Positions 20,591 through 55,897 of a DNA stretch of 64,000 nucleotides are shown piece after piece. This DNA comes from Escherichia coli phage NG_A1, in sequence record LC788705.1; one strand, given 5' to 3'. Position numbers and translations under genes: made by a program. Position 1 is the stretch's first letter. The number at the start of each line of letters is the position of its first letter. Under the pieces are notes generated by a model that was not told where the DNA came from, ran no database searches, and was given only the letters and a program-made list of their open reading frames with translations.

Positions 20591-20628
20591 AAAAGGGGAA
20601 GGAGCATAGCCCCCTCCCCTTAGGTTTA
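20591..20628 (-). terminator. Rho-independent terminator after D5-like gene
   Basis: Minus-strand G/C-rich hairpin (AAGGGGA...TCCCCTT) followed by a T-run. Confidence 0.65.
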
Positions 20629-20638: not shown

Positions 20639-21406
20639 TTATTCAGCAGCCGCAGCTTTTGCATCCAGTTTAGCACGCTTAGCGGCACCATCATAGTCCT
20701 TAGCAACCAGACCACGACGAGACAGCATAGATTTAACACCGCGCTCAGACTTACCAGTTTTCTCAGCGATCTCAGCAACAGTCATGTTAACCAGATCCAG
20801 ACCTTCTAACAGATCTTCACGAGTTTTAGCACTTGAGGTTTCCTGTACCGGCATAGCAGCGATACGACCTTCACGAAGCAGGCTCAGAGCTTTACCGCGG
20901 ATCTGCTTAATATTACGACCGAAGTGAGCAGCGATAGCTTCAATAGTAGCACCAGCAACAACCTGATTAACAAAATCAGTTTCTTCATCTGGAGTGAAGG
21001 AACGAACAGCAGCAGCTTTTTCGGTTGGCTTAACAGAAGCGGTCATTTCCAGACTCAGAATCTTACCCTGTACCTGCTTAGCACCGAACTGACCACCAGC
21101 CACAGCAGCAGCGATTTCAGCATAGGTATACTGACCAGCATGAGCGTTCAGGAAATCAACCAGTTCAGCTTCCTGCTCAGGAGTCCACGGGGATTTCTGT
21201 ACTTCGTTAGCTTTCTGTACTTCAAAACCTTCTTTACGCAGTTTAGAGCCAACAGAGCGAGCGGTAACATCTTTGCCAGTTTCAGCGGCCAGTTCAGCAG
21301 CGATAGCAGCTACTTGTTCTTGAGAGATTACAGCAACACCCAGAGCAGTGGCTTTTGCTTTCAGAGACTCGGTTACACCTTCTACGTTCCAGTTCAGTTT
21401 AGACAT
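20639..21406 (-). CDS. DNA-binding protein with three HTH-like repeat modules (T5 D5-like)
   Basis: 255 aa, Ala-rich; three ~45-aa repeats each ending in a helix-turn-helix-like stretch (e.g. MTVAEIAEKTGKSERGVKSMLSRRGL). Confidence 0.5.
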   Translation of the reverse strand: MSKLNWNVEGVTESLKAKATALGVAVISQEQVAAIAAELAAETGKDVTARSVGSKLRKEGFEVQKANEVQKSPWTPEQEAELVDFLNAHAGQYTYAEIAAAVAGGQFGAKQVQGKILSLEMTASVKPTEKAAAVRSFTPDEETDFVNQVVAGATIEAIAAHFGRNIKQIRGKALSLLREGRIAAMPVQETSSAKTREDLLEGLDLVNMTVAEIAEKTGKSERGVKSMLSRRGLVAKDYDGAAKRAKLDAKAAAAE

Positions 21407-22172
21407 TATTATTTTTCTCCAATAGTTCTTTAATCGACAGGATTTCTATCCCATTCGTTTCGGCTTTCTTATAAGATGAGGAAGAACGTTTTGATTCATC
21501 CTCACAGATTAGGTATTTGACGTCTTTGGTAACGGATTTCTTAACCGTGTATCCTAGACCTTCTAAGTAGTTTGTTGCATCCGTTCGATTTGCAAAATCT
21601 TGCAAAGATCCGGTAATACATACCGCGATTCCATTTGGCTGGGCAACTAAATCATCAGTAACGACGGTTTTAGCTTTAGCACCAGTTGAGAATTTCCACG
21701 GTAATTCGATAACATCCTTGCCTTGTGGGGAATTTAGCCAGGCTTTATAATTTTCTCCAGCCTTGCCGTCAGCCTTCACATCATGGAAGCTAGTGCAATT
21801 TTGGGATAATTTCTTTGCTGCAACCTCTCCAATTAGAGGGATTCCTAAAGAACCGAGAACTGAACCAAAGTCAATGTCTCCGCGAACTTTAGTATTTAAT
21901 TCGCTAATTAACTTAGCGGCAACCTTGCTACCCACGGCTCTAACCAAATCTTCTTCGGTTAGGTAAAAGAGTTCTGAAATCTTCGTCAGCTCCAGCTTCT
22001 CAATAGTTTTCGGGCCAAAGCCCTTTAACTTCATTTTTGAACAGAAGTTCTCAATTAACTTACTTGATTGCGCTGGACAGTTGGACTTATTCCGACAGAA
22101 TAATTGTCCGTTGACAAGATCTAGCTTAGAACCACAAGAGGGACATTGTGTTGGAATTTCGATTTTCATCAA
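21399..22172 (-). CDS. ligB: NAD-dependent DNA ligase, C-terminal subunit (Zn finger, HhH, BRCT)
   Basis: CPSCGSKL...C...C zinc finger, HhH segments, BRCT-like C-terminus (IAVCITGSL...YLICE). Confidence 0.8.
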   Translation of the reverse strand: MMKIEIPTQCPSCGSKLDLVNGQLFCRNKSNCPAQSSKLIENFCSKMKLKGFGPKTIEKLELTKISELFYLTEEDLVRAVGSKVAAKLISELNTKVRGDIDFGSVLGSLGIPLIGEVAAKKLSQNCTSFHDVKADGKAGENYKAWLNSPQGKDVIELPWKFSTGAKAKTVVTDDLVAQPNGIAVCITGSLQDFANRTDATNYLEGLGYTVKKSVTKDVKYLICEDESKRSSSSYKKAETNGIEILSIKELLEKNNNV

Positions 22173-22199
22173 ATTTCTTCCTTATCAATTTATATAAAT

Positions 22200-22228
22200 A
22201 TTATAGCAAGTATTTAAGCATTTAGCAA
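22200..22228 (-). promoter_or_regulatory. Early promoter inside the ligA-ligB spacer
   Basis: Minus-strand TTGCTA-N17-TATAAT with A/T-rich UP element; a second TTGACA-N17-TATACT lies about 100 nt upstream. Confidence 0.65.
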
Positions 22229-22371
22229 CTACAATTTTAACTAACTTTGCTTACCCTCGCCATAACTTTCTATCCCTCAACTGAATGATAATAGTATATA
22301 CCTAAGCGGCGAAAATGTCAATAACCACTTTATAATTCCGATATGGTAGATGGGTAGCAAAGGGTTATGTA

Positions 22372-23343
22372 TTAATCGTATACTCGCTCTACTATGCACG
22401 GGATTACACCACCAGCACGAATCACTCGAATTTGGCAACCGATCTCTAGATCAAGAGAGTTAATATAATCAACGTTATTAAGAGTCGCTTTAACAATTGT
22501 AGCATCATCAATAATTACCGGTTCGAAATAACCAACTGGAGTTACTTTACCAGAAGCCCCTACCTGCCATTCAACTTTAGTAAGAGTTGTAATCTCACCT
22601 TCTTCATCCTCTTTAATAGCGAATGCTCCACGAGGGAATTTATTAGTCCAGCCTTCTCGGAAGAACTTGTTGTTGTCGTTAATACGAACAACTTTACCGT
22701 CCGTCGGAATCCATTTAAAGAAGGAACGCACATTAACAACTGTTAAGAAGTTCTCATTCTCTAGCCAAAGCATATCTTTTAAATACGCTTCTGTAATACC
22801 TACAGATTCAGCAGAACACTGGATACCATATGCAACGAAGATTAAACCACCTTCCCCGATACGTTGTACAAAATCATCACTATCTTTGAGGTTAATAGCA
22901 CCAGAGGCAAAGTTACGTTTATTTTCTACTTCTTTTGTAATTAGAACTTCACCAGTGATTTGAGTAGGTACTTTTTGGGAAATCTTTTTAGGGATGTTCA
23001 GCAATCTTACGTTGCTTGTGACATCATTCCCTAGAATACCATTACCACGAGTTAGTGCTTGAACAAATTCGCCATTAATATATAACAGAGAAATCGCACA
23101 ACCATCTAACTTATCAGTTTCTACTTGACCTAACGGGTTAAATGGGGGTTTATCTCCACGATTATAATAAACTTTCTGTAAAGAATACATACGATACAGA
23201 TGTGGAATATCACCCTTAGGTCCGATCTCTTCTTCTAACGGGAAGCGTTTTACCAGGCAATCATACTCCTCATCTGAGATTAAAGACATACCTTGATAAT
23301 ATGCTTCTTGGCAACGTTTAATAAAGTCTTTTACATTGGTCAT
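22372..23343 (-). CDS. ligA: NAD-dependent DNA ligase, N-terminal subunit (adenylation + OB domain)
   Basis: KxDG adenylation motif (ETDKLDGCAISLLY), NAD-ligase motifs, OB-fold C-terminus. Confidence 0.85.
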   Translation of the reverse strand: MTNVKDFIKRCQEAYYQGMSLISDEEYDCLVKRFPLEEEIGPKGDIPHLYRMYSLQKVYYNRGDKPPFNPLGQVETDKLDGCAISLLYINGEFVQALTRGNGILGNDVTSNVRLLNIPKKISQKVPTQITGEVLITKEVENKRNFASGAINLKDSDDFVQRIGEGGLIFVAYGIQCSAESVGITEAYLKDMLWLENENFLTVVNVRSFFKWIPTDGKVVRINDNNKFFREGWTNKFPRGAFAIKEDEEGEITTLTKVEWQVGASGKVTPVGYFEPVIIDDATIVKATLNNVDYINSLDLEIGCQIRVIRAGGVIPCIVERVYD

Positions 23344-23616
23344 TTATTCTGCCTCATAGTATGTGGGTTGTCTAGTGGATCCGTGCCATGTATAATTTTT
23401 GCAAAGATGCAAATATGTAGTTTTTACTAGCCTATCTGACAACGGAGAGTATATTTCAGCTACTAATACTTCTTTTTCGTAATGAAGTGAAATCAGCTTA
23501 TACCCACTTCTAGTTTTAGTATACTTTTCTCCATTAATCTTCTCCTCCCACATAAGTATAAGAGGCTGTCCGATGTACGGGAAAGGTTTAAGTGTACTTA
23601 TACTTATCTTTTTCAC
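23344..23616 (-). CDS. Hypothetical protein
   Basis: 90-aa ORF immediately downstream of ligA start region; own promoter at 23647-23675. Confidence 0.45.
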   Translation of the reverse strand: MKKISISTLKPFPYIGQPLILMWEEKINGEKYTKTRSGYKLISLHYEKEVLVAEIYSPLSDRLVKTTYLHLCKNYTWHGSTRQPTYYEAE

Positions 23617-23646
23617 TTTGCAACCCTCTCATTAATTTATATAAAT

Positions 23647-23675
23647 ATTATATAACAAAACTGAGTTGAAAGCAA
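23647..23675 (-). promoter_or_regulatory. Early promoter
   Basis: Minus-strand TTGCTT-N17-TATAAT followed by the conserved AAATTAATGAGAGG leader. Confidence 0.65.
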
Positions 23676-23702
23676 GTACATTTATAAAGAAAAAGCCAAG
23701 AA

Positions 23703-45842: not shown

Positions 45843-45871
45843 TTGCTTCCGGCTCCAAAATTCTGTATAAT
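45843..45871 (+). promoter_or_regulatory. Early promoter
   Basis: TTGCTT-N17-TATAAT. Confidence 0.65.
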
Positions 45872-45911
45872 ATATTCATAAATTTGAGAAAACAATAAAA
45901 GGAAAACAAAT

Positions 45912-46094
45912 ATGCCAGTATCTAAAAATATTCGTAAAAATGGTAAGAAAGCTACTCGTAATCTGGGTATCCGTCGTATGGCTGAACGTCAATCAGGTAT
46001 CCAGAAAATCTTTGATCTGTTAAATCGTGCTAATCCTAAAATTGATAACAGTAATGATACTGTTCTGCGCACTCTGCTGGCAATTGGTCTGTAA
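45912..46094 (+). CDS. Hypothetical small basic protein
   Basis: 60-aa ORF downstream of promoter with AAAGGAAAA RBS. Confidence 0.45.
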   Translation: MPVSKNIRKNGKKATRNLGIRRMAERQSGIQKIFDLLNRANPKIDNSNDTVLRTLLAIGL

Positions 46095-46147
46095 TAGATC
46101 AAATTTAAACAAATTCAAATCTCAAACTTCATATAAGGAAGCAAATA

Positions 46148-46786
46148 ATGACTACTCGTATTTCTAAAACTCGCGCTCTGGCAACTATCAAATCTCTGGA
46201 AGCTAAAATCCGTAAAGCTACTGAACAACAGCTTCTGATCGCTGTTGGTGAAGGTAAGGATAAAAATAAGGTTGTAGTTGGCGCTGCAATCGAAGTAGAC
46301 GATCTATCTGCTCGTATTAAGGCAGATTTCCAATCTCTCCTAGATATGATGTCCCAGCGTGATCGTATCAAAGCTGCTCTGATTAAGAGCAATGCGGAAA
46401 CAATCGTTGAGATTGGCTCTTGTAAGATGACTGTTGCGGAAGCAATTGAAGCTAAGCGTTCTATGGAGCTTAAAGCTCAGCTGCTGGCTAACATGCGTAA
46501 GCAGTTCCATGCCGCTACGGTTAAGTTTAATACGCAGAAAGCACAGTTTGATGCTAAATATGAGCGTTTGCAGGATAGCATGGCTACTCGCGATAAGAAA
46601 ACTTCCGAAGATGAAGTTAAAATGCAGCTCAACCTGCTGGAACTCAAGAATACTCCATTCTTGATTGATCCGCTGGAACTGGAGAAGCTGATTAAGCAGC
46701 ATGACGAGGAATACCAGGACTTTGCAACAAATGTTGACTTTGTTCTGTCCGAGTCTAACGCCTCTACCTTCATTGAAGTAGAGTAA
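46148..46786 (+). CDS. Hypothetical coiled-coil protein
   Basis: 212-aa ORF with GGAAG RBS. Confidence 0.5.
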   Translation: MTTRISKTRALATIKSLEAKIRKATEQQLLIAVGEGKDKNKVVVGAAIEVDDLSARIKADFQSLLDMMSQRDRIKAALIKSNAETIVEIGSCKMTVAEAIEAKRSMELKAQLLANMRKQFHAATVKFNTQKAQFDAKYERLQDSMATRDKKTSEDEVKMQLNLLELKNTPFLIDPLELEKLIKQHDEEYQDFATNVDFVLSESNASTFIEVE

Positions 46787-47169
46787 TAATTTAAAAGCTA
46801 GTAAATCGGTAGACGAAAGCCCAAGCATCTTACCTCGCAGCAGCGGTTGAAATACGAGGTTAAATAAGACCGCTGACCATACTATAAAGTATAATCTATT
46901 GGAGATTATGTTTATTACACCAGCCTTTTAAGCTGACACGTAAGAACAAAGCGTCGTTGATATTACCGACACAACTTCAAAGATCAACATTTAAGTATGA
47001 AAGCTGAAAAGTTTAAAGAACTCAAACTTCTAAACTTCTAAAGCTAAAAGATGCAAAGTATTCGTTGATGATTCAAACCCTAGATCAAAGGTACATGGCT
47101 CGTAAGATATGGCCTGTGGCGCCTCTAGGCTGTTTATCGGTTTACTAGTTTCACAATTTAAAAATGTAT

Positions 47170-47198
47170 TTGCTAATTTATTAAGTTTTCTGTATAAT
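47170..47198 (+). promoter_or_regulatory. Early promoter
   Basis: TTGCTA-N17-TATAAT. Confidence 0.65.
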
Positions 47199-47228
47199 AT
47201 ATTTTTAAATTGATGAAACGAGGCTATT

Positions 47229-47546
47229 ATGACTTTTCATATTTTGATTGATGATGTGCGTAATCTTCATGGAATGGACATTATCATTCGAACCCCAGAA
47301 GCCGCTGTCGAGTTTCTGAATAAAACTGATACCACAGGCCACTTTGTTTATATGGATAATGACTTGGCTGTAGATGGTATGGAAGGTTATCAAATTCTTC
47401 GTTTACTCTTAGAATTTGGGCAGAGACCAAAGAAAGTGGTACTAGTAACCTCGAATCCCGTAGCTAAGCAAACTATGCGTAATGATTTGCTTGACTTAGG
47501 GTATAAAGAAAATCCCAATCGTGTCGAATATGATTGGCAGGAGTAA
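47229..47546 (+). CDS. Hypothetical protein
   Basis: 105-aa ORF. Confidence 0.5.
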   Translation: MTFHILIDDVRNLHGMDIIIRTPEAAVEFLNKTDTTGHFVYMDNDLAVDGMEGYQILRLLLEFGQRPKKVVLVTSNPVAKQTMRNDLLDLGYKENPNRVEYDWQE

Positions 47547-47551
47547 AAAGA

Positions 47552-48001
47552 ATGAAGACAGCTTTGCTTTTAGTAGCTGCCCTTACCTTCAGCTTTAGTA
47601 GTCAGGCATCGCACGATGCAAAAGAAATAGATTGCATTGCTAAAAATATCTATTTCGAAAGTCGTGGTGAGGGCATAAAGGGAATGACGGCGATTGCACA
47701 TGTTACTAAAAACCGTGTAAACTCCGGTAAATTCCCAGATTCCTACTGTAAAGTAGTATATCAGTCTAACCAGTTCTCTTGGGTATCTAAGAGACCAAAA
47801 GTTGATAAAACTGATGAGGCTTGGCAAACCGCCAAGAATTTAGCTAGAGTGATATACTACGTTGATTTACCACAAGATCCTACACATGGAGCTTTATACT
47901 TCCATAGTGGTAAAGATAAACCATACTGGACAAAGAAGTTTAAGAAAACAACTAAGATTAAGGGACATACATTTTATAAGCCTGTTGTCACTAAAACTTA
48001 A
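47552..48001 (+). CDS. Secreted cell-wall hydrolase, SleB/CwlJ-like
   Basis: Signal peptide (MKTALLLVAALTFSFSSQA), Hydrolase_2-like core (NIYFESRGEG...TKNRV...FHS); AGGAG RBS. Confidence 0.65.
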   Translation: MKTALLLVAALTFSFSSQASHDAKEIDCIAKNIYFESRGEGIKGMTAIAHVTKNRVNSGKFPDSYCKVVYQSNQFSWVSKRPKVDKTDEAWQTAKNLARVIYYVDLPQDPTHGALYFHSGKDKPYWTKKFKKTTKIKGHTFYKPVVTKT

Positions 48002-48009
48002 AAATTTAT

Positions 48010-48038
48010 TTGCTTAAATACTTAAACTTCTGTATAAT
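48010..48038 (+). promoter_or_regulatory. Early promoter
   Basis: TTGCTT-N17-TATAAT. Confidence 0.65.
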
Positions 48039-48069
48039 ACTTTCATAAATTAATGAGGGGAAGCGAAAT

Positions 48070-48240
48070 ATGAAATCAGTTGTAATTATTGGTGTTAATA
48101 CTCGCGGTATTCGTACTACGAAAACTGTTAAAACTTCCAACGTTGCTGAGATCACTACGAACCCTAAAAAGTTTGATTTCGCCAAAGTCTCAGCAGTTAT
48201 GACAGAACAATCTTTTAACCAAGCGTTAGGAATGAAATAA
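48070..48240 (+). CDS. Hypothetical small protein (56 aa)
   Basis: Below ORF-track cut-off; GAGGGG RBS; stop overlaps next ATG (TAATG). Confidence 0.4.
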   Translation: MKSVVIIGVNTRGIRTTKTVKTSNVAEITTNPKKFDFAKVSAVMTEQSFNQALGMK

Positions 48241-48683
48241 TGGAAGAGGATATTTTAGATGTTTTGCGTAGAGCTTTGCAGGATTCTAAGTTTAATGGTT
48301 CTGATAAAGAAGTCGCTAAAAGCTATCAGACCATAATCGGGGATCTTCAGCGTATTAATAAAGATTTCATCACTTCTGAACAATTTGTGTCTTATCTCAA
48401 AGCTCAACTAAAAAGCATTAACCAGATGAAAGCTAAACTTCATGGTCAAGATCTTGATAGTTATAGCTTGCAGTCCGCTCAGTATGAATACATTCTAAAT
48501 AAGTGGTTGCAGGAGTATCTGCCCTCTCAGTTATCTGATACTGAGATTCGTAAATACTTTGCAGAATTAGTTAAGCTAAACCCTGGAATTACAAAAGGTA
48601 TGCTGATGAAAGCGATCAAGGAAGAATTTCCTGGGCGTTATGATGGTGGTACTGCTGCTCAGATTGCTGGCGAATTTAATTAA
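48240..48683 (+). CDS. Hypothetical protein
   Basis: 147-aa ORF. Confidence 0.5.
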   Translation: MEEDILDVLRRALQDSKFNGSDKEVAKSYQTIIGDLQRINKDFITSEQFVSYLKAQLKSINQMKAKLHGQDLDSYSLQSAQYEYILNKWLQEYLPSQLSDTEIRKYFAELVKLNPGITKGMLMKAIKEEFPGRYDGGTAAQIAGEFN

Positions 48684-48691
48684 AAATTTAT

Positions 48692-48720
48692 TTGCTAAAT
48701 GCTTATAAATTCTGTATAAT
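48692..48720 (+). promoter_or_regulatory. Early promoter heading the tRNA/structured-RNA island
   Basis: TTGCTA-N17-TATAAT; no ORF for about 1 kb downstream. Confidence 0.65.
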
Positions 48721-49732
48721 ATATTCATAAATTAGAGAACAGCGAGCCGATTACGCTGAACTTGTCTTAATGTAAGATGCGTCGAGCACTAAGATTCGTT
48801 GAATAGAGTCGGTGGGTTAGTTGTAAAACTAGTACACAGGGGGCGGCAATCCCGGTTAGTGGCTAGAACGTGTAAAATGAGGCGTCTGAAACCTCTCCCC
48901 TAAACTCTTCTCTAATTTATAAATAGTGGGGTGTGGAAATCACTTATGTAGTAACACTGCCGTCCTAGTATAATTGGTATTATCAAGCCGTAACTGGTGG
49001 AAGATGTAGGTTCGAATCCTACGGTCGGTAAGAACTGGATAACTGATGCTTTTAATGTAAAAGCTTCCGAGGTTAGTTGCGCACTGCCTAAACCACGCGG
49101 TAGTTGGTTCCAGACTAACCAACCAGTCTGCTGAATAGTTTTATTACGATTTAACTATGTCCAGGCTAAAGAAGAACTTTAGAAGGTATTCTAGGATAGT
49201 GAAGTTCTTTCTCCATATCGGAGTAGTTTTTCAAGCTATCCACAAAGTGGGAAATGCTGACATGAGAGATGTCACTAATGGTGCACAATAGCACAGGTAA
49301 TTCGCGATAACTCCTGTTGAGTAGCAGCAAAAGGTGGGAAGTCATGACCCCAAGCCTAACCGAGTCCTCAATATACCGCAGGACATAACTACTAAGTCAC
49401 CCTGACTTAAACTGGAAAATAATAGACGTTACTGTATTTTGTCTTGAAATACTTAATGAGTGAGACTTATGACTCTCCCGGTATCGTCTGTATTTTTAAG
49501 AGTTTTTACGAGAGTTCTTAAAAATACTTAAACGGGGTGTAGTCTAAGGGAGAGGCAGGAGTCTTCTAAATTCCTTTATGCAGGTTCGAATCCCTTGTCA
49601 CGCACCAAATTTGATGGTCAGAGTAAATTAAACCTACTATCTCGGTTGAGCTGTTTTAATGGGTTCGAATCCCAGCGAGGCGTAACTGCCTGGTGTGATA
49701 GAGGCATCATTCCACTAACATTGGAAAAACTA

Positions 49733-49963
49733 ATGAAACGAAAATTAAAAAAGTCTTATATAATTAAGATAAATAAGCTACGAAGTAGGGCAAAAGGATG
49801 GCCACTTCGAATATTAATTGCGGATAACCATACTAGATACCATGCGGAACAACGTCATTACAAACAGTGGGAGTCATACTGCCGCTCAAAAGCAGGTCGT
49901 TTAGATGGATCTTATGAGTTTCTATTTGGTAAAAAGCCTACTAGAGTAGCTTTAGGTAATTAA
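49733..49963 (+). CDS. Hypothetical small basic protein inside tRNA island
   Basis: 76 aa from internal ATG of the 49595 ORF; weak RBS; the upstream part of that ORF overlaps tRNA-like motifs. Confidence 0.3.
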   Translation: MKRKLKKSYIIKINKLRSRAKGWPLRILIADNHTRYHAEQRHYKQWESYCRSKAGRLDGSYEFLFGKKPTRVALGN

Positions 49964-49968
49964 TACTT

Positions 49969-50059
49969 GGAAGAGCAAATCGAATTGGCGACGAAAACCG
50001 CTTGGAAAGTGGCTGACTGGTAAAACGGCTTGAGAGTTCAAATCTCTCCTCTTCCGCCA
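49969..50059 (+). tRNA. tRNA-Ser(GGA)-like, type II, CCA encoded
   Basis: 7-bp acceptor GGAAGAG/CTCTTCC, T-arm GAGAG-TTCAAAT-CTCTC, discriminator G + CCA, anticodon loop TTGGAAA; D-arm atypical (4-nt linker). Confidence 0.5.
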
Positions 50060-50071
50060 AACAATTTATAT

Positions 50072-50166
50072 GGTAGGTCAATCCAACGGCTGGCGCTGGA
50101 CTCCGACTTGAAATCGGTTGATCGTAGTGATACGGTGTAAGGGTTCGATCCCCTTACCTACCTCCA
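50072..50166 (+). tRNA. tRNA-Ser(TGA), type II, CCA encoded
   Basis: Acceptor GGTAGGT/ACCTACC, anticodon stem-loop CCGA-CTTGAAA-TCGG, variable arm CGTA-GTGA-TACG, T-arm AAGGG-TTCGATC-CCCTT. Confidence 0.6.
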
Positions 50167-50171
50167 AATCT

Positions 50172-50302
50172 TGGAATATGCCGGAATTGGTAGACGGGAC
50201 TGCCGAATAGGTTTACTAGGAACATCCACTCCTAGAAATATACCTTAAAAGCGGTTGAGTTAAATGGTCTAACTCATGAAGGTTCAAGCCCTTCTATTCC
50301 TT
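50172..50302 (+). ncRNA. Oversized tRNA-like element (131 nt) with Leu-type D-arm and canonical T-arm
   Basis: 5' TGGAATA-TG-CCG-GAATTGGTAGA-CGG; 3' GAAGG-TTCAAGC-CCTTC + TATTCCT pairing the 5' end; internal arms do not fit a cloverleaf. Confidence 0.4.
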
Positions 50303-50531
50303 GATACATCAATGGCTCAAAGTGTAACGGTGCTATTTGATGCTCTTGGAAAGACTTTCCCGACATGCGTTCGGGGGTAAGCTTCTGAGGCTAGAATAGA
50401 AGAGTTTCTGAGAGCCGCCACAATTGAAAATTCGTACTCGTCTTGAGCTGCATGCAATAGGAGATAACTTGATTAGTATTCTAGAACATGCTAATTGAGG
50501 ATGGTTTCGCTAACCCTGCGAGTTTTCAATT

Positions 50532-50605
50532 GTGGCTATATCATAATTGGTTAATGATCCTGATTGTGAATCAGGCCTATGTGGATTCGAATTCCACTAG
50601 CCACC
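50532..50605 (+). tRNA. tRNA-His(GTG)
   Basis: Acceptor GTGGCTA/TAGCCAC, D-arm TCAT-AATTGGTTA-ATGA, anticodon arm CCTGA-TTGTGAA-TCAGG, T-arm GTGGA-TTCGAAT-TCCAC. Confidence 0.85.
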
Positions 50606-50634
50606 CCCAAATTAACTTAAATAGGAAATAAAAT

Positions 50635-50829
50635 ATGGCTGATTTCTGCAAACAATGCTCCATTGATATGTGGGGCAGAGATACTGGTGATCTTTCTGGG
50701 CTGATTACAGAAGCCGAAGTCAAAGAAGGTTATGGTGCAGTTGTGGTTTGTGAAGGATGCGGAGTCATTCGAGTAGATCATGAGGGTAAGCGCCTTGAAG
50801 AACCTGAGCCAGTTACCCTATTTCCCTAA
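50635..50829 (+). CDS. Small zinc-ribbon protein
   Basis: 64 aa with CxxC...CxxC (CKQC...CEGC); AGGAAATAAAAT RBS. Confidence 0.45.
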   Translation: MADFCKQCSIDMWGRDTGDLSGLITEAEVKEGYGAVVVCEGCGVIRVDHEGKRLEEPEPVTLFP

Positions 50830-50842
50830 AGTAAAGAATTAT

Positions 50843-50918
50843 TGGGATGTAGATCAATTGGCAGATCGTCGGCCTCTGACTCCGAAGGTTCCACGTTCGA
50901 TCCGTGGCATCCCAGCCA
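50843..50918 (+). tRNA. tRNA-Gln(CTG), CCA encoded
   Basis: U1-A72 acceptor TGGGATG/CATCCCA, D-arm GATC-AATTGGCA-GATC, anticodon loop CTCTGAC, T-arm CCACG-TTCGATC-CGTGG. Confidence 0.75.
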
Positions 50919-50924
50919 AATACT

Positions 50925-51000
50925 TGGAGAGTAGTGTAACGGTTAGCACAACGGCCTTTGACTCCGTTAATGGTAGGTTCGATTCCTCCTTCTCCAGCCA
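50925..51000 (+). tRNA. tRNA-Gln(TTG), CCA encoded
   Basis: Acceptor TGGAGAG/TTCTCCA, anticodon loop CTTTGAC; near-duplicate architecture of the preceding tRNA-Gln. Confidence 0.7.
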
Positions 51001-51007
51001 AATTAAT

Positions 51008-51082
51008 GCGTGATTAGTTCAGTGGCTAGAATAACTGGCTTCCAACCAGTAGACACGAGTTCGACTCTCGTATCCCGCACCA
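51008..51082 (+). tRNA. tRNA-Gly(TCC), CCA encoded
   Basis: Anticodon arm ACTGG-CTTCCAA-CCAGT, T-arm ACGAG-TTCGACT-CTCGT, acceptor with one mismatch. Confidence 0.8.
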
Positions 51083-51096
51083 AATAAGGAAACACT

Positions 51097-51348
51097 ATGC
51101 ACGTTTTTGAGTTTCGTAATAAAAGTACTGATAAGCGAGTTATCATTATTGGAGAAACATATCGAGCATATGAACAAACTGATGGCTCTGTTATCTTGAA
51201 TGATGAGAAAGGAGGTTTTAGCTTTTATCCAGAAGAACCTTATGAAGAGTTTCGAAAACAATTTAACCTAGACTGGAGAAAGCATTTAAACACTGTTGCT
51301 TCATCTGTAGTATTGCCAACTACCAGTACTGTACTCTCTAATGGCTGA
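51097..51348 (+). CDS. Hypothetical small protein
   Basis: 83-aa ORF with AAGGAAAC RBS directly after the tRNA-Gly gene. Confidence 0.45.
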   Translation: MHVFEFRNKSTDKRVIIIGETYRAYEQTDGSVILNDEKGGFSFYPEEPYEEFRKQFNLDWRKHLNTVASSVVLPTTSTVLSNG

Positions 51349-51505
51349 CAACCTAAAAGTAAAGATTGATAAACAAAAGAAACGTGTAGAAGTAGAGATT
51401 GGTGAAGAACGTGTTGCCTTTACTTTTGAATTTCTACAGCAAATGGCAATGGCAGTTATGACTGATAAGTCTCCTGTTATTGAAAAAGAAATCCCGTTGA
51501 AATAA
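51341..51505 (+). CDS. Hypothetical small protein (54 aa)
   Basis: Translationally coupled ATG overlapping upstream stop; below ORF-track cut-off. Confidence 0.35.
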   Translation: MADNLKVKIDKQKKRVEVEIGEERVAFTFEFLQQMAMAVMTDKSPVIEKEIPLK

Positions 51506-51515
51506 CGGGATCATC

Positions 51516-51590
51516 GCTCCTAAAGCATTGCTGGCGATGCAGTTGCCTTGTAAGCATCTGAACCGGGTTCGATTCCTGGTGGGAGCACCA
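51516..51590 (+). tRNA. tRNA-Thr(TGT), CCA encoded
   Basis: Acceptor GCTCCTA/TGGGAGC, D-arm GCAT-TGCTGGCG-ATGC, anticodon loop CTTGTAA, T-arm CCGGG-TTCGATT-CCTGG. Confidence 0.65.
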
Positions 51591-51605
51591 AATTTAAAAA
51601 TTCAT

Positions 51606-51634
51606 TTGCCTTCTCTCTTATTTATTGTTATAAT
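51606..51634 (+). promoter_or_regulatory. Early promoter
   Basis: TTGCCT-N17-TATAAT. Confidence 0.6.
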
Positions 51635-51664
51635 ATTTATATAAATTAATGAGAGGGAAACCAA

Positions 51665-51955
51665 ATGAAACGTTATCTTTCTATTGTATTCCAAACTGGT
51701 GGTCAAAGATATACCTATGAATTTCCATCTTCTTGGAAAATCAAAGAAGGTGATCAAGTAGTAGTGTTAACACCGCGTGAAGGGTATAAAGTAGTAATGG
51801 TTAAACAAGTATTCCCAAAAGATCATGAACCAGCTAAAGGCATTCGCTATAAGATGATTCATGGTGTGGTCCGTCAAGTACCACGAACTGAGGTAGAAGT
51901 AGATAAGACTGGAGAAACTAAATTCCATTATACTTCTTACTTAGATAGTGTGTGA
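51665..51955 (+). CDS. Hypothetical protein
   Basis: 96-aa ORF with GAGAGGGAAA RBS. Confidence 0.5.
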   Translation: MKRYLSIVFQTGGQRYTYEFPSSWKIKEGDQVVVLTPREGYKVVMVKQVFPKDHEPAKGIRYKMIHGVVRQVPRTEVEVDKTGETKFHYTSYLDSV

Positions 51956-51970
51956 TGTAAATATTCTAAT

Positions 51971-52047
51971 ACTTCGGTAGCTTAGCGATCTAAAGCACCC
52001 GGCTGATAACCGAGAGATCGGGGGTTTAAATCCCTCCCGGAGTACCA
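51971..52047 (+). tRNA. tRNA-Ile(GAT), CCA encoded
   Basis: Acceptor ACTTCGG/CCGGAGT, anticodon loop CTGATAA, atypical T-loop TTTAAAT. Confidence 0.55.
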
Positions 52048-52143
52048 AATTTAGGAATTAAGACTATGCGTCCAGGAAAGTTTAAAAAAGCTAATTGGTC
52101 TAAAGAGTATAAAGAATACTTACTTAGTCTAGTAAAACATAAC

Positions 52144-52219
52144 AGTTAGTTGGCAGAGTGGTTATGCACCTCCTTCATACGGAGCGACTACAGTGGTTCA
52201 AATCCACTACTAACTACCA
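52144..52219 (+). tRNA. tRNA-Met(CAT), CCA encoded (initiator/elongator/Ile2 not resolved)
   Basis: Acceptor AGTTAGT/ACTAACT, D-arm GCA-GAGTGGTTA-TGC, anticodon loop TTCATAC, T-arm AGTGG-TTCAAAT-CCACT. Confidence 0.75.
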
Positions 52220-52256
52220 TTAAAAGAGCTAGAGATAGCTAAATTTAGGAGCAGCT

Positions 52257-52451
52257 ATGTTAACAATTAAAATAATGTCAGCCAAGAATGGTGAACATAT
52301 CCATACAGGCAAAAGTGTAAGCTTTAATCCTAGAAATAAAAGATTGGCTATAGTTGGAGTAGACCAAGCCATCTTTTTAAAAGAAGATGAAGTAGCATAT
52401 GTCATGAACCAAACTGGTAAGACAGTTTCCGTATACTATGGAAAAGTATAA
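52257..52451 (+). CDS. Hypothetical small protein
   Basis: 64-aa ORF with TAGGAG RBS. Confidence 0.45.
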   Translation: MLTIKIMSAKNGEHIHTGKSVSFNPRNKRLAIVGVDQAIFLKEDEVAYVMNQTGKTVSVYYGKV

Positions 52452-52493
52452 AGAATAAATAGCTGAGCCAAATTCTAACATCGGGGAGATCTA

Positions 52494-52862
52494 ATGAAAG
52501 CATATCAAAGTCTTAAATCTGGCGTAATTAACCTTGTTCATGAAAATCAGATTATTCAGCTATACTCCGACAACGGTGAACTTAAACAGAAAGTTCTAGT
52601 TGAAGATCTAGAAGGTATCACACCACAATTCGATCCCGAAGCCTTCCGTGAAGTCAAAGTGGAAGTCGCCCCTCAAATCGAAGGTGGTCAGCACCTAAAT
52701 GTCAATGTGTTAAGCCGTGATCAGCTTTTGGATGTGCAGAAACATCCTGAAAAATATCCTCAGTTGACCATCCGTGTCTCTGGCTACGCTGTTCGATTTA
52801 ACGCACTGACTCGTGAACAACAGAACGACGTTATTAGTCGTACATTTACTCAGGCGATGTAA
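52494..52862 (+). CDS. Hypothetical protein
   Basis: 122-aa ORF with GGGGAG RBS. Confidence 0.5.
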
Positions 52863-52943
52863 TGGGGTTTGGATACGATTTCTCCCAGCTACGCAAGGTA
52901 GTCGAGCAAACTCCGTTTATCTCCCAAGTTTTAGGAGAAATGG

Positions 52944-53258
52944 GTGGATCGAGCATTAAGACGCCATCACCGGCAACGTGTGAAGAACAACCGCAAGAAG
53001 TATTGGACAGTCTTTCCACATGAAGAAAGCCCTAAGCGGTTAGGTATTATCACTACTACTCCTTGCATCTGTTCTTGCTGGATGTGTGGGAACCCTCGCA
53101 AATATTATAAGAATAGTAAAGCAGGTATGAAAACCTCGGAGATTAGGAAAATGGAAGCAATGATTACGGATATTTCAAATGATGAATTTGATGGCTTTGT
53201 AGGATTCGGAGAAGGAATTAGCTCAGGCTGTTTCGAAGATGTACGCCCCGATTTGTAA
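52944..53258 (+). CDS. Basic Cys-rich small protein
   Basis: GTG start 6 nt after AGGAG; Arg/Lys-rich N-terminus and CICSCWMC cluster. Confidence 0.4.
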   Translation: MDRALRRHHRQRVKNNRKKYWTVFPHEESPKRLGIITTTPCICSCWMCGNPRKYYKNSKAGMKTSEIRKMEAMITDISNDEFDGFVGFGEGISSGCFEDVRPDL

Positions 53259-53267
53259 TTAATAACA

Positions 53268-53304
53268 AACCCCAGCTATTGAATAGGTAGTCTGGGGTTT
53301 TTCT
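53268..53304 (+). terminator. Rho-independent terminator
   Basis: AAACCCCAG...CTGGGGTTT stem followed by T-run. Confidence 0.7.
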
Positions 53305-53379
53305 GTATACAGGTAGATAATTTATGTATAATAAAATTCATCCACATTAGGTTAATTTAAAAAACTTAATGGAGGTAAT

Positions 53380-53727
53380 ATGAGCCGTACTTATCGTAAA
53401 CAATCTGGTGATCAGTGGTGGAAGTCTAAAGAACAATTCTCTCAAGAATATTCTTTCATCAAAGAAAATGGATACTGGATTCGTGTTATTTATGCCAAAT
53501 CTTGGGACGACATCAAAAAAGAAATGAAGGAAGCAACCATTCGTAATGAGAAAAAGGATGGTTATAACTGGAATTCTATTAGCAAGAATGTTAAGTGGCA
53601 TTCTAATAAAATGGTTCGTCAAGGAAATCGTCAAGAACTCCACCGCGTGATGAAAGATCCAGAAAATTACGACTATAATCGCGATCATGACATGCGTAAG
53701 CGTGGATTATGGTGGTGCTATGACTAA
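53380..53727 (+). CDS. Hypothetical protein
   Basis: 115-aa ORF with GGAGG RBS. Confidence 0.5.
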   Translation: MSRTYRKQSGDQWWKSKEQFSQEYSFIKENGYWIRVIYAKSWDDIKKEMKEATIRNEKKDGYNWNSISKNVKWHSNKMVRQGNRQELHRVMKDPENYDYNRDHDMRKRGLWWCYD

Positions 53728-53744
53728 TTTCTGAAATAATTCAT

Positions 53745-53773
53745 TTGCTAAACCTCTCTTTTCTTGTTATAAT
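53745..53773 (+). promoter_or_regulatory. Early promoter
   Basis: TTGCTA-N17-TATAAT. Confidence 0.65.
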
Positions 53774-53803
53774 ATTTATATAAATTGATGAGAGAGGTTT
53801 GAA

Positions 53804-54085
53804 ATGAAAACTCGTCTAGACTGTGCTATTCACGTTGTCGAGCATAGTGTTGTTGGAACCTGTATGTCTTACCATGAAGCAGGTCGTTTAATTAAAGAAC
53901 GTGTGGCAGATGTGTGTGGATTGAAGATTACTGCTGAGGAATCTGATGATCTTTTAGGTCAAGCACTGGAGAAAACCGAAATGTTCCTCTGCGATTCTTG
54001 TTCTTGGTGGTGTGAAGCTCACGAACGTTCTTTCAATGATTATGATGTATGTCGTGATTGTAGTGGGGAGGATGAAGATGAATAA
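53804..54085 (+). CDS. Small Cys-rich zinc-ribbon protein with acidic C-terminus
   Basis: CDSCSWWC...CRDC cluster and C-terminal GEDEDE. Confidence 0.5.
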   Translation: MKTRLDCAIHVVEHSVVGTCMSYHEAGRLIKERVADVCGLKITAEESDDLLGQALEKTEMFLCDSCSWWCEAHERSFNDYDVCRDCSGEDEDE

Positions 54086-54377
54086 GTTTATTATTGCACT
54101 GATGATCTCCGCAGTTAGTTTCGGTTCTCTGGCATCTACCAAAGTTTCTATGAAAAATGGTAATGTTAAAGTCCAACAGAACGGCATTATTACCGAGTAT
54201 GGTAAAGTTCGTGATGTTAAGGAACGTAATGGTAAAGTAGAAATATATACTAATAAAAACTTCACTACTCCAGCCGTTACTATTAGCAAACGTGGTGAGA
54301 TAACTACTCAACGTACTAATAGCTCTAGTTCTTTTACTTGTCGTTATGATTGCGACTTTGAAGGTGAAGATGAATAA
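54072..54377 (+). CDS. Secreted small protein (signal peptide)
   Basis: N-terminal hydrophobic signal (MKMNKFIIALMISAVSFGSLA); ends in CDFEGEDE. Confidence 0.5.
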   Translation: MKMNKFIIALMISAVSFGSLASTKVSMKNGNVKVQQNGIITEYGKVRDVKERNGKVEIYTNKNFTTPAVTISKRGEITTQRTNSSSSFTCRYDCDFEGEDE

Positions 54378-54789
54378 TTTAGATCCTAGAATTAATTTTG
54401 CTATTACAGAAATCCAAGATCAAATTGATGAGGACTTCACTGTTTGGTCAAGGTCTGGCAATGGAGAGTATTGCCAGCTTTATAGCATGAAAATGGGTAT
54501 CTCAATTGAGCTTAATATCAACTCTGAAGGTAGAGTAGAAGCCCAGCCCATGTTCAGTGTTCCAGGCTTCTCTGGATTTGTTGCAGGTATAAAATTGTGT
54601 CTACCAAATAACCATCTTCATCGAGTTATTTGTCAGCTAGTGACTATTAAGCATTTCTTGCCAGAAGGTAATATTAATGACTACTACCACGAAGTTGTAG
54701 CAGCTCATATGATGAAAGAACGCAAACGTCGGAGAGAAGAACGTGAAAAGACTAAACATCAACAGCACAGTGCAGATTCCAGCAACTAA
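54370..54789 (+). CDS. Hypothetical protein
   Basis: About 139 aa from ATG 54370 embedded in the repeated GAAGATGAATAA junction. Confidence 0.45.
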   Translation: MNNLDPRINFAITEIQDQIDEDFTVWSRSGNGEYCQLYSMKMGISIELNINSEGRVEAQPMFSVPGFSGFVAGIKLCLPNNHLHRVICQLVTIKHFLPEGNINDYYHEVVAAHMMKERKRRREEREKTKHQQHSADSSN

Positions 54790-55039
54790 GGATGTTTTAA
54801 TATTCCTACGTAGTGAGAATACCCAGTTTTGGCATGACTATATTCAGGAAAATAAAAATAATCCAGACATAGTTGCTTTTGCCAAGAAACGTATTGGTGA
54901 ATATAAAGATCCAGAGATTAAAGATGGGATGATTACCATGCAGTTATGGATAGCTATGAAAACCTTTGGACCCACTATGAGTCTAGGATTTACTCCGCTG
55001 TTTACTAATATTCTAATTAATGAAAAGGATCTGAAATGA
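54743..55039 (+). CDS. Hypothetical protein (start uncertain)
   Basis: 98-aa ORF with GTG start overlapping the previous gene. Confidence 0.35.
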   Translation: MKRLNINSTVQIPATKDVLIFLRSENTQFWHDYIQENKNNPDIVAFAKKRIGEYKDPEIKDGMITMQLWIAMKTFGPTMSLGFTPLFTNILINEKDLK

Positions 55040-55287
55040 TTATCTCTCCATTTGCTCTTTGGTTCATCATTGGATCTGTAGTTGCTATTTACAGCTTGGT
55101 TGATGATCTGTATATTTCTAAGAATAAAGATGTAATATTATACGTTATACATAAAACTCGACCGTTAGATCTGCCACCTCTTGATGATAAAACATTACTC
55201 AGATGTGCTAGATCTGTGATATTTATTGTGGATATTCTTCTAGGCCCAACATCTGTGTTTTTCTTTATAGAAAAACTCGTAATATGA
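55036..55287 (+). CDS. Small membrane protein
   Basis: 83 aa with N-terminal TM helix. Confidence 0.45.
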   Translation: MIISPFALWFIIGSVVAIYSLVDDLYISKNKDVILYVIHKTRPLDLPPLDDKTLLRCARSVIFIVDILLGPTSVFFFIEKLVI

Positions 55288-55429
55288 AAAAATTTAAAGC
55301 TGAAATGCAGAATACTTAAAGAACTCGCGTAGGACCGAGTTGCGTCACCTGCAACTGTTACGGATAAGGGAGTCGTGCCCCTTAGTGCGGTAAGTGGTGA
55401 GGTGGCTGCTAGCCCTAACTGGAGATAAT

Positions 55430-55774: not shown

Positions 55775-55821
55775 GATTGACACTAAGTCAGCTTACTAGC
55801 AAAAGCAAATAATGACAAAGC

Positions 55822-55856
55822 CCAGCCTGCACTTTTGCGACTGGGCTATTTTTATA
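55822..55856 (+). terminator. Rho-independent terminator
   Basis: GCCCAG...CTGGGC stem followed by TATTTTT. Confidence 0.7.
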
Positions 55857-55868
55857 ATAAAATTTTAG

Positions 55869-55897
55869 TTGCTTAGATGCCCAAACTTTTGTATAAT
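55869..55897 (+). promoter_or_regulatory. Early promoter
   Basis: TTGCTT-N17-TATAAT. Confidence 0.65.

What the first reader, a model, noticed from the sequence alone, without database searches (positions are those of the whole stretch)
21399..23343. NAD-dependent DNA ligase split into two genes by a promoter-containing 199-bp spacer
Adenylation plus OB domains (ligA, 22372-23343) and Zn-finger/HhH/BRCT domains (ligB, 21399-22172) are separate ORFs, split at the OB/Zn-finger boundary, with two sigma70-type promoters in the spacer. A split ligase is consistent with what I recall of T5-like phages, but whether the halves act as a heterodimer and why the split is kept is unclear; the spacer has no intron or intein features.
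Basis: partly seen in the sequence, partly recalled or inferred. Interest (0 to 1): 0.4.

Follow-up and report, generated by a model that had tools for sequence, protein, structure and literature searches.

The report
Split T5 DNA ligase with internal promoters
This is the well-known two-gene NAD-dependent DNA ligase (ligA/ligB) of phage T5 and its relatives, separated by two already named T5 early promoters; a relative's two subunits have been solved as a heterodimer on nicked DNA, so the finding is real but ordinary.

Summary
ORF 22372-23343(-) encodes the adenylation and OB domains. ORF 21399-22169/22172(-) encodes the Cys4 zinc finger, HhH and BRCT domains. Together they tile a full-length NAD+ ligase, with the break in the OB/Zn linker (about E. 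coli LigA residues 398/399). The spacer holds two strong sigma70-type sites.

The window is a T5-like phage, and its 199-bp spacer is identical to that of T5 st0. The T5 st0 GenBank record already annotates ligA, promoter P-K 28b, promoter P-K 28a and ligB.

The split and the tandem promoters just upstream of ligB are conserved in six Demerecviridae genera. Both halves are under strong purifying selection. No intron, intein or read-through signal is present.

PDB entries 9HU3 and 9I5I (released 2026) are the "PR1 phage heterodimeric DNA ligase" on nicked DNA. Their two chains are clear homologues of the window's LigA and LigB, which largely answers the heterodimer question.

Best explanation: a non-covalent two-subunit ligase. 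The gap is kept because it houses the promoters of the conserved ligB-D5 unit.

One new side lead: uncultured T5-like phages carry an unsplit compact ligase at the same position, often with promoter-like sites inside the ORF near the same junction.

Novelty: already known. Interest is low.

The parts
22372..23343 (-). [quoted passage not shown] It holds a short domain Ia, the nucleotidyltransferase (adenylation) domain and the OB fold.
   Evidence: Matches Pfam PF01653 and PF03120 and phrog_3359 at E = 2.7e-176. Matches PDB 9hu3_A at E = 2.6e-103. Conserved residues are K78 (KxDG), D80, G81, R99, E132, R143, D215 and K244, plus Ia residues Y15, Y16, D24, Y27 and D28. The AlphaFold2 model has pLDDT 88.5 and TM 0.86 to 9hu3_A. 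dN/dS against phage S114 is 0.04.
22170..22371 (-). Intergenic spacer between ligA and ligB: 199 nt to the TTG start, 202 nt to the ATG start. GC content is 31%.
   Evidence: Stop codons occur in all three frames, and ligA and ligB are in different frames. No Rfam hit and no significant RNA structure. The spacer is 199/199 identical to T5 st0. The 162-nt promoter module is 162/162 identical to Epseptimavirus S114, although ligA synonymous sites differ at pS 0.42.
22267..22341 (-). Distal early promoter, equivalent to T5 'promoter P-K 28b'. The -35 TTGACA is at 22321-22316 and the -10 TATACT at 22298-22293.
   Evidence: Found in the promoter scan. Coordinates were transferred from the T5 st0 annotation through a 100% identical alignment. 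TTGAC and TATA.T are invariant in six genera.
22174..22248 (-). Proximal early promoter, equivalent to T5 'promoter P-K 28a'. The -35 TTGCTA is at 22228-22223 and the extended -10 TGcTATAAT ends at 22200.
   Evidence: Supported. Its -10 plus downstream core, TATAATATTTATATAAATT, recurs 15 times in the window against 0.27 expected. This marks it as a standard T5 early-promoter core.
21399..22169 (-). ligB: NAD+-dependent DNA ligase subunit B (256 aa from the ATG; the TTG alternative is at 22172). It holds the Cys4 zinc finger, HhH domain and BRCT domain.
   Evidence: Pfam BRCT scores 32.7 bits against a cut-off of 21.3. Matches phrog_3498 at E = 3.1e-136 and PDB 9hu3_B 'DNA ligase subunit B' at E = 1.1e-81 over the full length. 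Aligns to E. coli LigA from residue 399 onward. dN/dS against S114 is 0.10.
20639..21406 (-). D5-like DNA-binding protein / transcription factor gene. Its ATG overlaps the ligB stop codon by 8 nt, so it is co-transcribed and probably translationally coupled with ligB.
   Evidence: Shown. Matches phrog_323 'transcriptional regulator, D5-like' at E = 1.5e-71. ligB is followed directly by a D5 homologue in all relatives examined.
20593..20621 (-). Intrinsic terminator closing the P-K28b/a - ligB - D5 transcription unit.
   Evidence: A 13-bp stem with 8 GC pairs followed by a T run. Terminators are annotated at the same place in phages Sugarland and PR1.
23624..23689 (-). Putative early promoter that serves the 90-aa ORF (23344-23616) and ligA.
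   Evidence: The sequence contains TTGCTT-17-TATAAT and an exact copy of the core TATAATATTTATATAAATT. The T5 st0 record annotates a 'putative promoter' directly upstream of ligA.

Best explanation
The locus encodes a two-subunit NAD+-dependent DNA ligase, the ligA/ligB pair of phage T5.

LigA carries all the chemistry: domain Ia for NAD+, the adenylation domain with Lys78, and the OB fold. LigB carries the DNA-clamping and accessory modules: the zinc finger, HhH and BRCT domains. The two proteins associate non-covalently around a nick, rebuilding the C-shaped clamp that bacterial LigA forms as a single chain.

The break lies exactly in the flexible OB/Zn linker. The gap is not debris. It holds two tandem T5 early promoters (P-K28b and P-K28a) that start a conserved transcription unit of ligB, D5 and a terminator. 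ligA is transcribed from an upstream early promoter, and no terminator separates it from the spacer in this phage.

The split is probably kept for two reasons. The heterodimer works, and re-fusing the gene would force the strong promoters for ligB and D5 back under coding constraint.

Shown here: domain content, split point, conservation of both halves and of the promoters, and homology to a solved heterodimer. Inferred: heterodimer formation and NAD+ use by this particular phage's proteins, promoter activity in vivo, and the selective reason for keeping the split.
For: - **The halves are complementary.** LigA covers positions 9-381 and LigB 388-654 of a full-length ligase profile. The junction falls at E. 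coli LigA residues 398/399.
- **The catalytic, NAD-specific and zinc ligand residues are present**.
- **A homologous heterodimer has been solved.** PDB 9HU3 and 9I5I, 'PR1 phage heterodimeric DNA ligase in complex with 21-mer nicked DNA', have chains A and B homologous to the two ORFs. The source is Providencia phage PR1 at 100% identity.
- **The feature is already annotated in T5.** The T5 st0 GenBank record lists ligA, P-K 28b, P-K 28a and ligB, and the window's spacer is identical to it.
- **The split is widespread.** The same split is seen in Tequintavirus, Epseptimavirus, Sugarlandvirus, Novosibvirus, Priunavirus and Vibrio phages. All 120 best LigA homologue clusters (46-99% identity) are 240-337 aa long, one being a 240-aa partial record, and have only the adenylation and OB domains.
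- **The tandem promoters are conserved.** They sit 84-96 nt apart with the second about 30 nt before the ligB ATG, and they align across six genera with invariant hexamer cores.
- **Both halves are under purifying selection and diverge at equal rates.** dN/dS is 0.04 and 0.10. Amino-acid identity to Sugarland is 72% and 73%, and to PR1 56% and 56%.
- **The ligB-D5 unit is coherent.** The ligB stop overlaps the D5 start, and a terminator follows D5.
Against: - No experiment on the T5 proteins themselves was found in the searchable literature. Heterodimer formation is therefore extrapolated from a homologue that is 53-56% identical.
- Domain Ia is truncated and His23 is replaced by Tyr, so NAD+ dependence is predicted rather than shown.
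- The promoter scan for the whole region is not enriched over shuffles.
- The 'promoters must stay outside the ORF' argument is weakened by unsplit relatives that seem to carry promoter-like sites inside the ORF.
Confidence: 0.9

Rival explanations
1. The ligase gene is broken. An insertion or sequencing error disrupted a single ORF, and one or both halves are non-functional remnants.
For: Canonical NAD+ ligases are single polypeptides. One related record (Salmonella phage INF11) has ligA itself in two pieces, which shows that errors or frameshifts do occur in this gene.
Against: The same arrangement occurs in more than 400 related records and in six genera. dN/dS is 0.04 and 0.10. All key residues are retained. 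ligB has its own Shine-Dalgarno sequence and ATG. Both chains have been produced and crystallised together for a homologue.
Confidence: 0.02
2. The two proteins do not work mainly as one enzyme. LigA would be a self-sufficient minimal ligase. LigB, transcribed separately from two strong promoters and perhaps in excess, would have its own role, for example as a nick or DNA-binding factor or as a BRCT scaffold for the T5 replisome or for handling of the genome nicks.
For: ligB has dedicated strong promoters while ligA does not share them. ligB is coupled to D5, a DNA-binding regulator. The depositors of 9HU3 used DNA 'containing phage nick sequence', which hints at a link to T5-type genome nicks.
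Against: The two halves co-occur everywhere and evolve at the same rate. The PDB title calls the complex a heterodimeric ligase on nicked DNA. From established knowledge of bacterial LigA truncations, recalled and not tested here, removing the Zn/HhH part abolishes nick joining but not self-adenylation.
Confidence: 0.07
3. The spacer is the remnant of a mobile element (homing endonuclease gene, intron or intein) that split the gene. A single polypeptide might even be restored by splicing, trans-splicing or ribosomal bypass.
For: T5-like genomes carry many HNH endonuclease genes; examples sit near this locus in Sugarland and T5. The ligA-ligB gap does accept insertions: 55-aa and 98-aa ORFs in phages PM135 and 70E35.6, and three ORFs including a DprA-like gene in VF16.
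Against: There is no Rfam intron match at E<=1 and no stable RNA fold. No intein or endonuclease domain is found in either half or in any of the inserted ORFs. The junction is seamless. Stops occur in all frames and the two ORFs are in different frames. The PDB entries contain two separate chains. The inserted ORFs lie upstream of the conserved promoter module, not in place of it.
Confidence: 0.02

Closest known systems
Phage T5 ligA/ligB (T5p114 AAU05253, T5p115 AAU05254) with promoters P-K 28b and P-K 28a (GenBank AY692264)
   Same: The gene order, split point and operon context are the same. The 199-nt spacer is 100% identical.
   Different: The window has an extra 90-aa ORF (phrog_35018) between the upstream promoter and ligA. 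T5 st0 lacks this ORF. ligB also differs by a 9-nt indel.
PR1 phage heterodimeric DNA ligase, PDB 9HU3 and 9I5I (Providencia phage vB_PreS_PR1)
   Same: It is a two-chain enzyme. Chain A is the LigA homologue (E = 2.6e-103, about 53-56% identity, TM 0.86 to the model). Chain B is the LigB homologue (E = 1.1e-81). The gene order is the same, with tandem promoters before ligB.
   Different: PR1 belongs to a different genus (Priunavirus). Its spacer sequence has diverged to 54% identity, and its record annotates a terminator after ligA. The structures were solved for PR1, not for T5.
Bacterial NAD+-dependent DNA ligase LigA (E. coli, PDB 2OWO)
   Same: The domain order is the same: Ia, NTase, OB, Zn, HhH, BRCT. 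The catalytic lysine motif KxDG, other active-site residues and the Cys4 zinc finger are shared.
   Different: E. coli LigA is a single 671-aa chain. The phage enzyme is two chains totalling 579 aa, with a shortened Ia, deletions in the NTase and HhH domains, and only about 26% identity.
Unsplit compact (555-586 aa) ligases of uncultured T5-like phages (P0152, P0159, P0171, P0173, P0179-P0181, P0188, P0190)
   Same: They are 40-46% identical to LigA over its full length and have the same compact size. The synteny is the same: a PC4-like gene, the ligase, a D5-like gene, DnaB and a primase.
   Different: They are a single ORF. In 7 of the 9 genes a strong promoter-like site lies inside the coding sequence, at or just after the OB/Zn junction, rather than in a spacer.
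T5 early promoters P-N25 and P-N26
   Same: P-K28a shares the TTGCT... -35, the extended -10 TTGnTATAATATT, and an A/T-rich initial transcribed region with P-N26 and with 14 other sites in the window.
   Different: P-K28b has a consensus TTGACA -35 and a unique downstream sequence ending in TTGAGGGA.

Membership tests
NAD+-dependent DNA ligase (LigA family, EC 6.5.1.2) | Nucleotidyltransferase domain with the motif I lysine (KxDG) and the other active-site residues | tested here: met
   PF01653 scores 83.5 bits. K78-L-D80-G81, R99, E132, R143, D215 and K244 align to E. coli K115, D117, G118, R136, E173, R200, D285 and K314.
NAD+-dependent DNA ligase (LigA family, EC 6.5.1.2) | N-terminal domain Ia with the NMN-binding residues that confer NAD+ specificity | tested here: inconclusive
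   Y15, D24, Y27 and D28 align to E. coli Y22, D32, Y35 and D36. However, H23 is replaced by Y16, and the domain is about 25 residues shorter. Cofactor use was not tested.
NAD+-dependent DNA ligase (LigA family, EC 6.5.1.2) | OB fold, Cys4 zinc finger, HhH domain and BRCT domain, in that order | tested here: met
   OB: PF03120 at 78.4 bits. BRCT: PF00533 at 32.7 bits. The HhH Pfam hits are below the gathering cut-off, but LigB aligns to T. filiformis ligase residues 400-653 and E. coli LigA residues 402-529. Cys 9, 12, 25 and 31 are present. Positions 388-654 of phrog_3869 are covered.
NAD+-dependent DNA ligase (LigA family, EC 6.5.1.2) | All domains on one polypeptide | tested here: not met
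   There are two ORFs in different frames, separated by about 200 nt with stops in all frames. This is a two-subunit variant of the family, not a canonical member.
T5-type two-subunit (heterodimeric) NAD+ ligase LigA/LigB | Separate ligA (Ia-NTase-OB) and ligB (Zn-HhH-BRCT) genes, broken at the OB/Zn linker, adjacent and in the same orientation, followed by D5 | tested here: met
   Shown. The arrangement is the same in T5, S114, Sugarland, PM135, PR1, VF16 and 70E35.6.
T5-type two-subunit (heterodimeric) NAD+ ligase LigA/LigB | Full-length homology of both subunits to the solved heterodimer (PDB 9HU3 chains A and B) | tested here: met
   E = 2.6e-103 over residues 4-323 for LigA, and E = 1.1e-81 over residues 1-252 for LigB. 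The LigA model has TM 0.86 to 9hu3_A.
T5-type two-subunit (heterodimeric) NAD+ ligase LigA/LigB | Physical association of the two subunits and joint nick sealing | not testable with these tools
   This is inferred from the titles of 9HU3 and 9I5I for the PR1 homologue. No paper describing it was found.
T5 early promoters P-K28b / P-K28a | Sequence identity with the features so named in the T5 record, at the same position | tested here: met
   The spacer is 199/199 identical. The features are annotated in AY692264 and as 'P-K 28a-like' and 'P-K 28b-like' in S114. Promoter activity itself was not tested here.
Intron-, intein- or homing-endonuclease-interrupted gene | A group I/II intron RNA fold, Hint/intein blocks, or an endonuclease ORF in the interruption | tested here: not met
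   No Rfam match at E<=1. The RNA fold z-score is -0.81. There are no such Pfam or PHROG domains. The junction is seamless.

The most novel reading that the evidence does not exclude
The break point may mark an old internal promoter rather than a random fission. Uncultured T5-like phages keep the ligase as one compact ORF in the same synteny. In 7 of 9 such genes the best sigma70-like site lies inside the ORF, between -31 and +263 nt of the first zinc-finger cysteine codon. One of them has a perfect TTGACA-17-TATAAT in the linker itself. Another has a linker-embedded TGcTATAATATAtTC that resembles the ligB promoter of a related split phage (L023/P0175, its neighbour in the rough tree). Fused and split forms are intermixed by similarity. 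The gene may therefore have been split, and possibly re-fused, several times around a promoter that drives D5. The split form would free that promoter from coding constraint.
Probability: 0.3. Interest if true: 0.35.

Novelty: already known. Interest (0 to 1): 0.15.

Why it matters
It matters little as a discovery. The split ligase and both promoters are annotated in the T5 reference record, and a homologous heterodimer bound to nicked DNA is in the PDB.

Its value is as a clean natural example of gene fission at a domain linker, where the gap has a clear regulatory job. The family-wide conservation of the tandem promoter module explains why the split is stable.

The side lead gives a testable model for how regulatory elements can drive gene fission and fusion in phage genomes. 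That lead is the unsplit relatives with promoter-like sites embedded at the same junction.

Tried and rejected
- **Literature.** Searches for a paper on the heterodimeric ligase, the PDB codes, P-K28a/b, or T5 ligA/ligB biochemistry found one relevant paper. It is a 2013 NAR paper on the T5 D2 helicase, and it merely lists ligA (AAU05253) and ligB (AAU05254) as subunits. One search failed because a search term was too short.
- **Intron or structured RNA in the spacer.** Rejected.
- **Mini-ORF downstream of P-K28b.** An 8-codon ORF (22263-22237) has a GAGGGA Shine-Dalgarno-like element. A 9-codon ORF occupies the same place in PR1, but it is not conserved in Sugarland, PM135 or the Vibrio phages. 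It was not adopted as a gene.
- **Homing endonuclease in the gap of relatives.** The inserted ORFs in PM135, VF16 and 70E35.6 have no endonuclease domains. One is DprA-like.
- **'Acinetobacter phage MD-2021a' as a fused phage relative.** Rejected, because the contig carries smc, zipA, ligA and bfr and looks bacterial.
- **Phylogeny.** The neighbour-joining tree of 137 LigA-region sequences has very short internal branches and no bootstrap. It cannot decide between multiple fissions and re-fusions.
- **Co-folding.** I did not co-fold LigA and LigB.
Full report
**1. Observation**

On the minus strand there is a 323-aa ORF at 22372-23343 and a 257-aa ORF at 21399-22172. The first matches the NAD-ligase adenylation and OB-fold Pfam families well above threshold. 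The second matches BRCT above threshold and HhH families below it.

Against a 656-position full-length phage ligase profile (phrog_3869), the first ORF covers positions 9-381 and the second covers 388-654. In an alignment with E. coli LigA, the last residue of the first ORF pairs with residue 398 and the first residue of the second ORF with residue 399. This is the linker between the OB fold and the zinc finger, and no residues are lost or added.

The listed TTG start at 22172 is probably not the real one. The ATG at 22169 is better spaced from the AAGGAAG ribosome-binding site. It is also the start conserved in other genera and used in the solved homologue.

The spacer holds the two best minus-strand sigma70-like sites of a 4-kb scan: TTGACA-17-TATACT and TTGCTA-17-TATAAT with an extended -10. 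The total count of such sites in the region is not above shuffled expectation. The case for these two therefore rests on conservation and prior annotation, not on the scan.

**2. Identity of the locus**

The 2.4-kb region matches 446 phage records, nearly all T5-like (Tequintavirus, Epseptimavirus and relatives). Most annotate the two ORFs as NAD-dependent DNA ligase subunits A and B.

The T5 st0 GenBank record lists, in order, ligA (T5p114), 'promoter P-K 28b', 'promoter P-K 28a' and ligB (T5p115). The window's spacer is 199/199 identical to it. A 2013 paper on the T5 D2 helicase cites the same two accessions as ligase subunits.

From memory, not checked here, P-K28a and P-K28b belong to the set of strong T5 early promoters isolated by Gentz and Bujard in the 1980s. 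The window also contains the classical P-N25 and P-N26 sequences upstream.

**3. The heterodimer question**

The sequence search of the PDB returned entries 9HU3 and 9I5I. Chain A is 'DNA ligase (NAD(+))' (339 aa, E = 2.6e-103 to LigA). Chain B is 'DNA ligase subunit B' (248 aa, E = 1.1e-81 to LigB, full length).

An AlphaFold2 model of LigA (pLDDT 88.5) superposes on 9hu3_A with TM 0.86. The fold search gave the entry titles and dates:
- 'PR1 phage heterodimeric DNA ligase in complex with 21-mer nicked DNA containing phage nick sequence', released 2026-01-14
- the same complex with random-sequence DNA, released 2026-02-18

The chain A sequence is 100% identical to Providencia phage vB_PreS_PR1, a member of the T5 family. 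PR1 has the same gene arrangement. I found no paper for these entries in the searchable library.

Extending the answer to this phage is an inference.

**4. Is the enzyme intact?**

- The adenylation lysine (K78 in KLDG) and D80, G81, R99, E132, R143, D215 and K244 are conserved.
- Four of the five NAD-specific domain Ia residues are conserved. His23 is replaced by Tyr, and domain Ia is shortened.
- LigB has four cysteines in the zinc-finger position.
- Against Epseptimavirus S114, dN/dS is 0.04 for ligA and 0.10 for ligB.
- The two halves diverge in step: 72% and 73% identity to Sugarland, 56% and 56% to PR1, and 59% and 57% to PM135.

Both halves are therefore functional and evolve as one unit.

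**5. What the spacer is and is not**

ligA and ligB are in different frames, and all three frames of the spacer contain several stops. There is no Rfam match at E<=1 and no unusual RNA structure (z = -0.81). There is no intein or endonuclease domain.

The spacer is under strong constraint. The 162-nt promoter module is identical between the window and S114, although ligA synonymous sites differ at pS = 0.42.

Across six genera, two sites 84-96 nt apart lie immediately upstream of ligB, the second about 30 nt before the ATG. The genera are the window's, Sugarlandvirus, Priunavirus, Novosibvirus and two groups of Vibrio phages. In the alignment, TTGAC and TATA.T of the first promoter are invariant, as are TTGC and TTGnTATAATATT of the second.

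Where relatives have extra ORFs in the gap, these lie between the ligA stop and the first promoter. They are 55 aa in PM135, 98 aa in 70E35.6, and three ORFs including a DprA-like gene in VF16.

The proximal promoter's core, TATAATATTTATATAAATT, occurs 15 times in the window against 0.27 expected. It is the phage's standard early-promoter core.

**6. Transcription unit**

The ligB stop overlaps the ATG of the D5-like gene by 8 nt. A strong terminator follows D5 at 20621-20593. ligB followed by D5 is conserved in every relative examined, and terminators are annotated after D5 in Sugarland and PR1. No terminator-like site lies between ligA and the spacer promoters in the window.

The simplest reading is that the gap houses the promoters of a ligB-D5 unit. 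The split persists because the heterodimer works, and because re-fusion would place those promoters under coding constraint.

**7. Relatives that are not split (side lead)**

A search of 1.8 billion representative proteins found many LigA-only proteins of about 310-340 aa. It also found compact single-chain ligases of 555-586 aa that are 40-46% identical to LigA and continue into a LigB-like half.

Nine of these were traced to uncultured contigs, where sequence on the flanks allowed, with T5-like synteny. The order is a PC4-like or T5_A2-like gene, the ligase, a 237-253-aa gene, DnaB, a primase and DNA polymerase A. One of the downstream genes is 37% identical to the window's D5 (E = 1e-49).

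In 7 of the 9 fused genes, the best coding-strand promoter-like site (at least 10/12) lies inside the ORF, between -31 and +263 nt of the first zinc-finger cysteine codon:
- L022 has a perfect TTGACA-17-TATAAT in the linker.
- L012 has TTGAAT-18-TGcTATAAT in the linker.

A split relative (L023) that sat next to L012's ligase in the rough tree has TTGACA-17-TGgTATAATATAcTC just before its ligB. This resembles the L012 in-ORF sequence. Another split relative (L024) also has a strong site 26 nt before ligB.

By BLAST and a rough neighbour-joining tree, some fused forms are basal and others sit among split forms. The tree is unresolved. This clustering was noticed post hoc, and the lineages are not independent. 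A rough binomial estimate that I made by hand, not from any tool run, gives about 1e-3. I treat this only as a lead: an internal promoter for D5 may predate the fission, or survive re-fusion.

**8. Verdict**

The finding is real and correctly interpreted, but already known. It is annotated in the T5 reference, widely annotated in relatives, and structurally characterised in a homologue.

What this analysis adds:
- the exact junction
- the demonstration that the tandem promoter module is conserved family-wide and more constrained than synonymous sites
- the ligB-D5 operon logic
- the existence of unsplit syntenic relatives with promoter-like sites at the same junction

Interest is low at 0.15.

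Noticed in passing
window, 15 sites: 13084-33133 all on the - strand, 45866-61271 all on the + strand: The early-promoter core TATAATATTTATATAAATT (up to 3 mismatches) occurs 15 times against 0.27 expected, including 5 exact copies. Its strand switches between about 33 kb and 46 kb, which marks divergent early transcription blocks.
   Followed up: partly
window 23344-23616 (-): A 90-aa ORF of unknown function (phrog_35018) sits between the upstream early promoter and ligA, abutting the ligA ATG. It is absent from T5 st0. Most related records in the sampled rows (36 of 40) stop matching at this point.
   Followed up: partly
window 22237-22263 (-): An 8-codon mini-ORF (MARVSKVS) with a GAGGGA Shine-Dalgarno-like element lies just downstream of P-K28b. 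PR1 has a 9-codon ORF at the same place, but it is not conserved in Sugarland, PM135 or the Vibrio phages. The TTGAGGGA-like element itself is semi-conserved.
   Followed up: partly
L012 6741-6770; L022 (gene nt 893-921); L015, L016, L017, L019, L021: Unsplit compact ligase genes of uncultured T5-like phages carry strong sigma70-like sites inside the ORF, at or shortly after the OB/Zn junction. L022 has a perfect consensus site.
   Followed up: partly
L005 3469-4448 (Vibrio phage VF16); L006 3457-3753; L004 3492-3659: The ligA-ligB gap is an insertion hot spot in other genera. VF16 carries three ORFs there, including a DprA-like recombination-mediator gene (phrog_768, E = 3.8e-49). The other inserted ORFs have no known function.
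   Followed up: partly
L007 (CAKLQF020000011.1, 'Acinetobacter phage MD-2021a'): This contig in the phage collection carries smc, zipA, a full-length ligA and bacterioferritin. It looks like bacterial chromosome rather than phage.
   Followed up: no
PV692321.1 (Salmonella phage INF11) 11224-12191; L001 1700-2344 (phage HZ_ZJUN2): INF11 has ligA itself annotated in two pieces, probably from a frameshift or sequencing error. HZ_ZJUN2 annotates a shortened ligB and has an extra 201-nt ORF upstream of ligA.
   Followed up: no
L008 12534-12535 (T5 st0 record position 70533-70534): The T5 record annotates a 'major DNA single-chain interruption' about 11 kb downstream of the ligase locus. The 9HU3 title mentions a 'phage nick sequence'. 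A link between the heterodimeric ligase and the T5-type genome nicks seems to be under study elsewhere.
   Followed up: no
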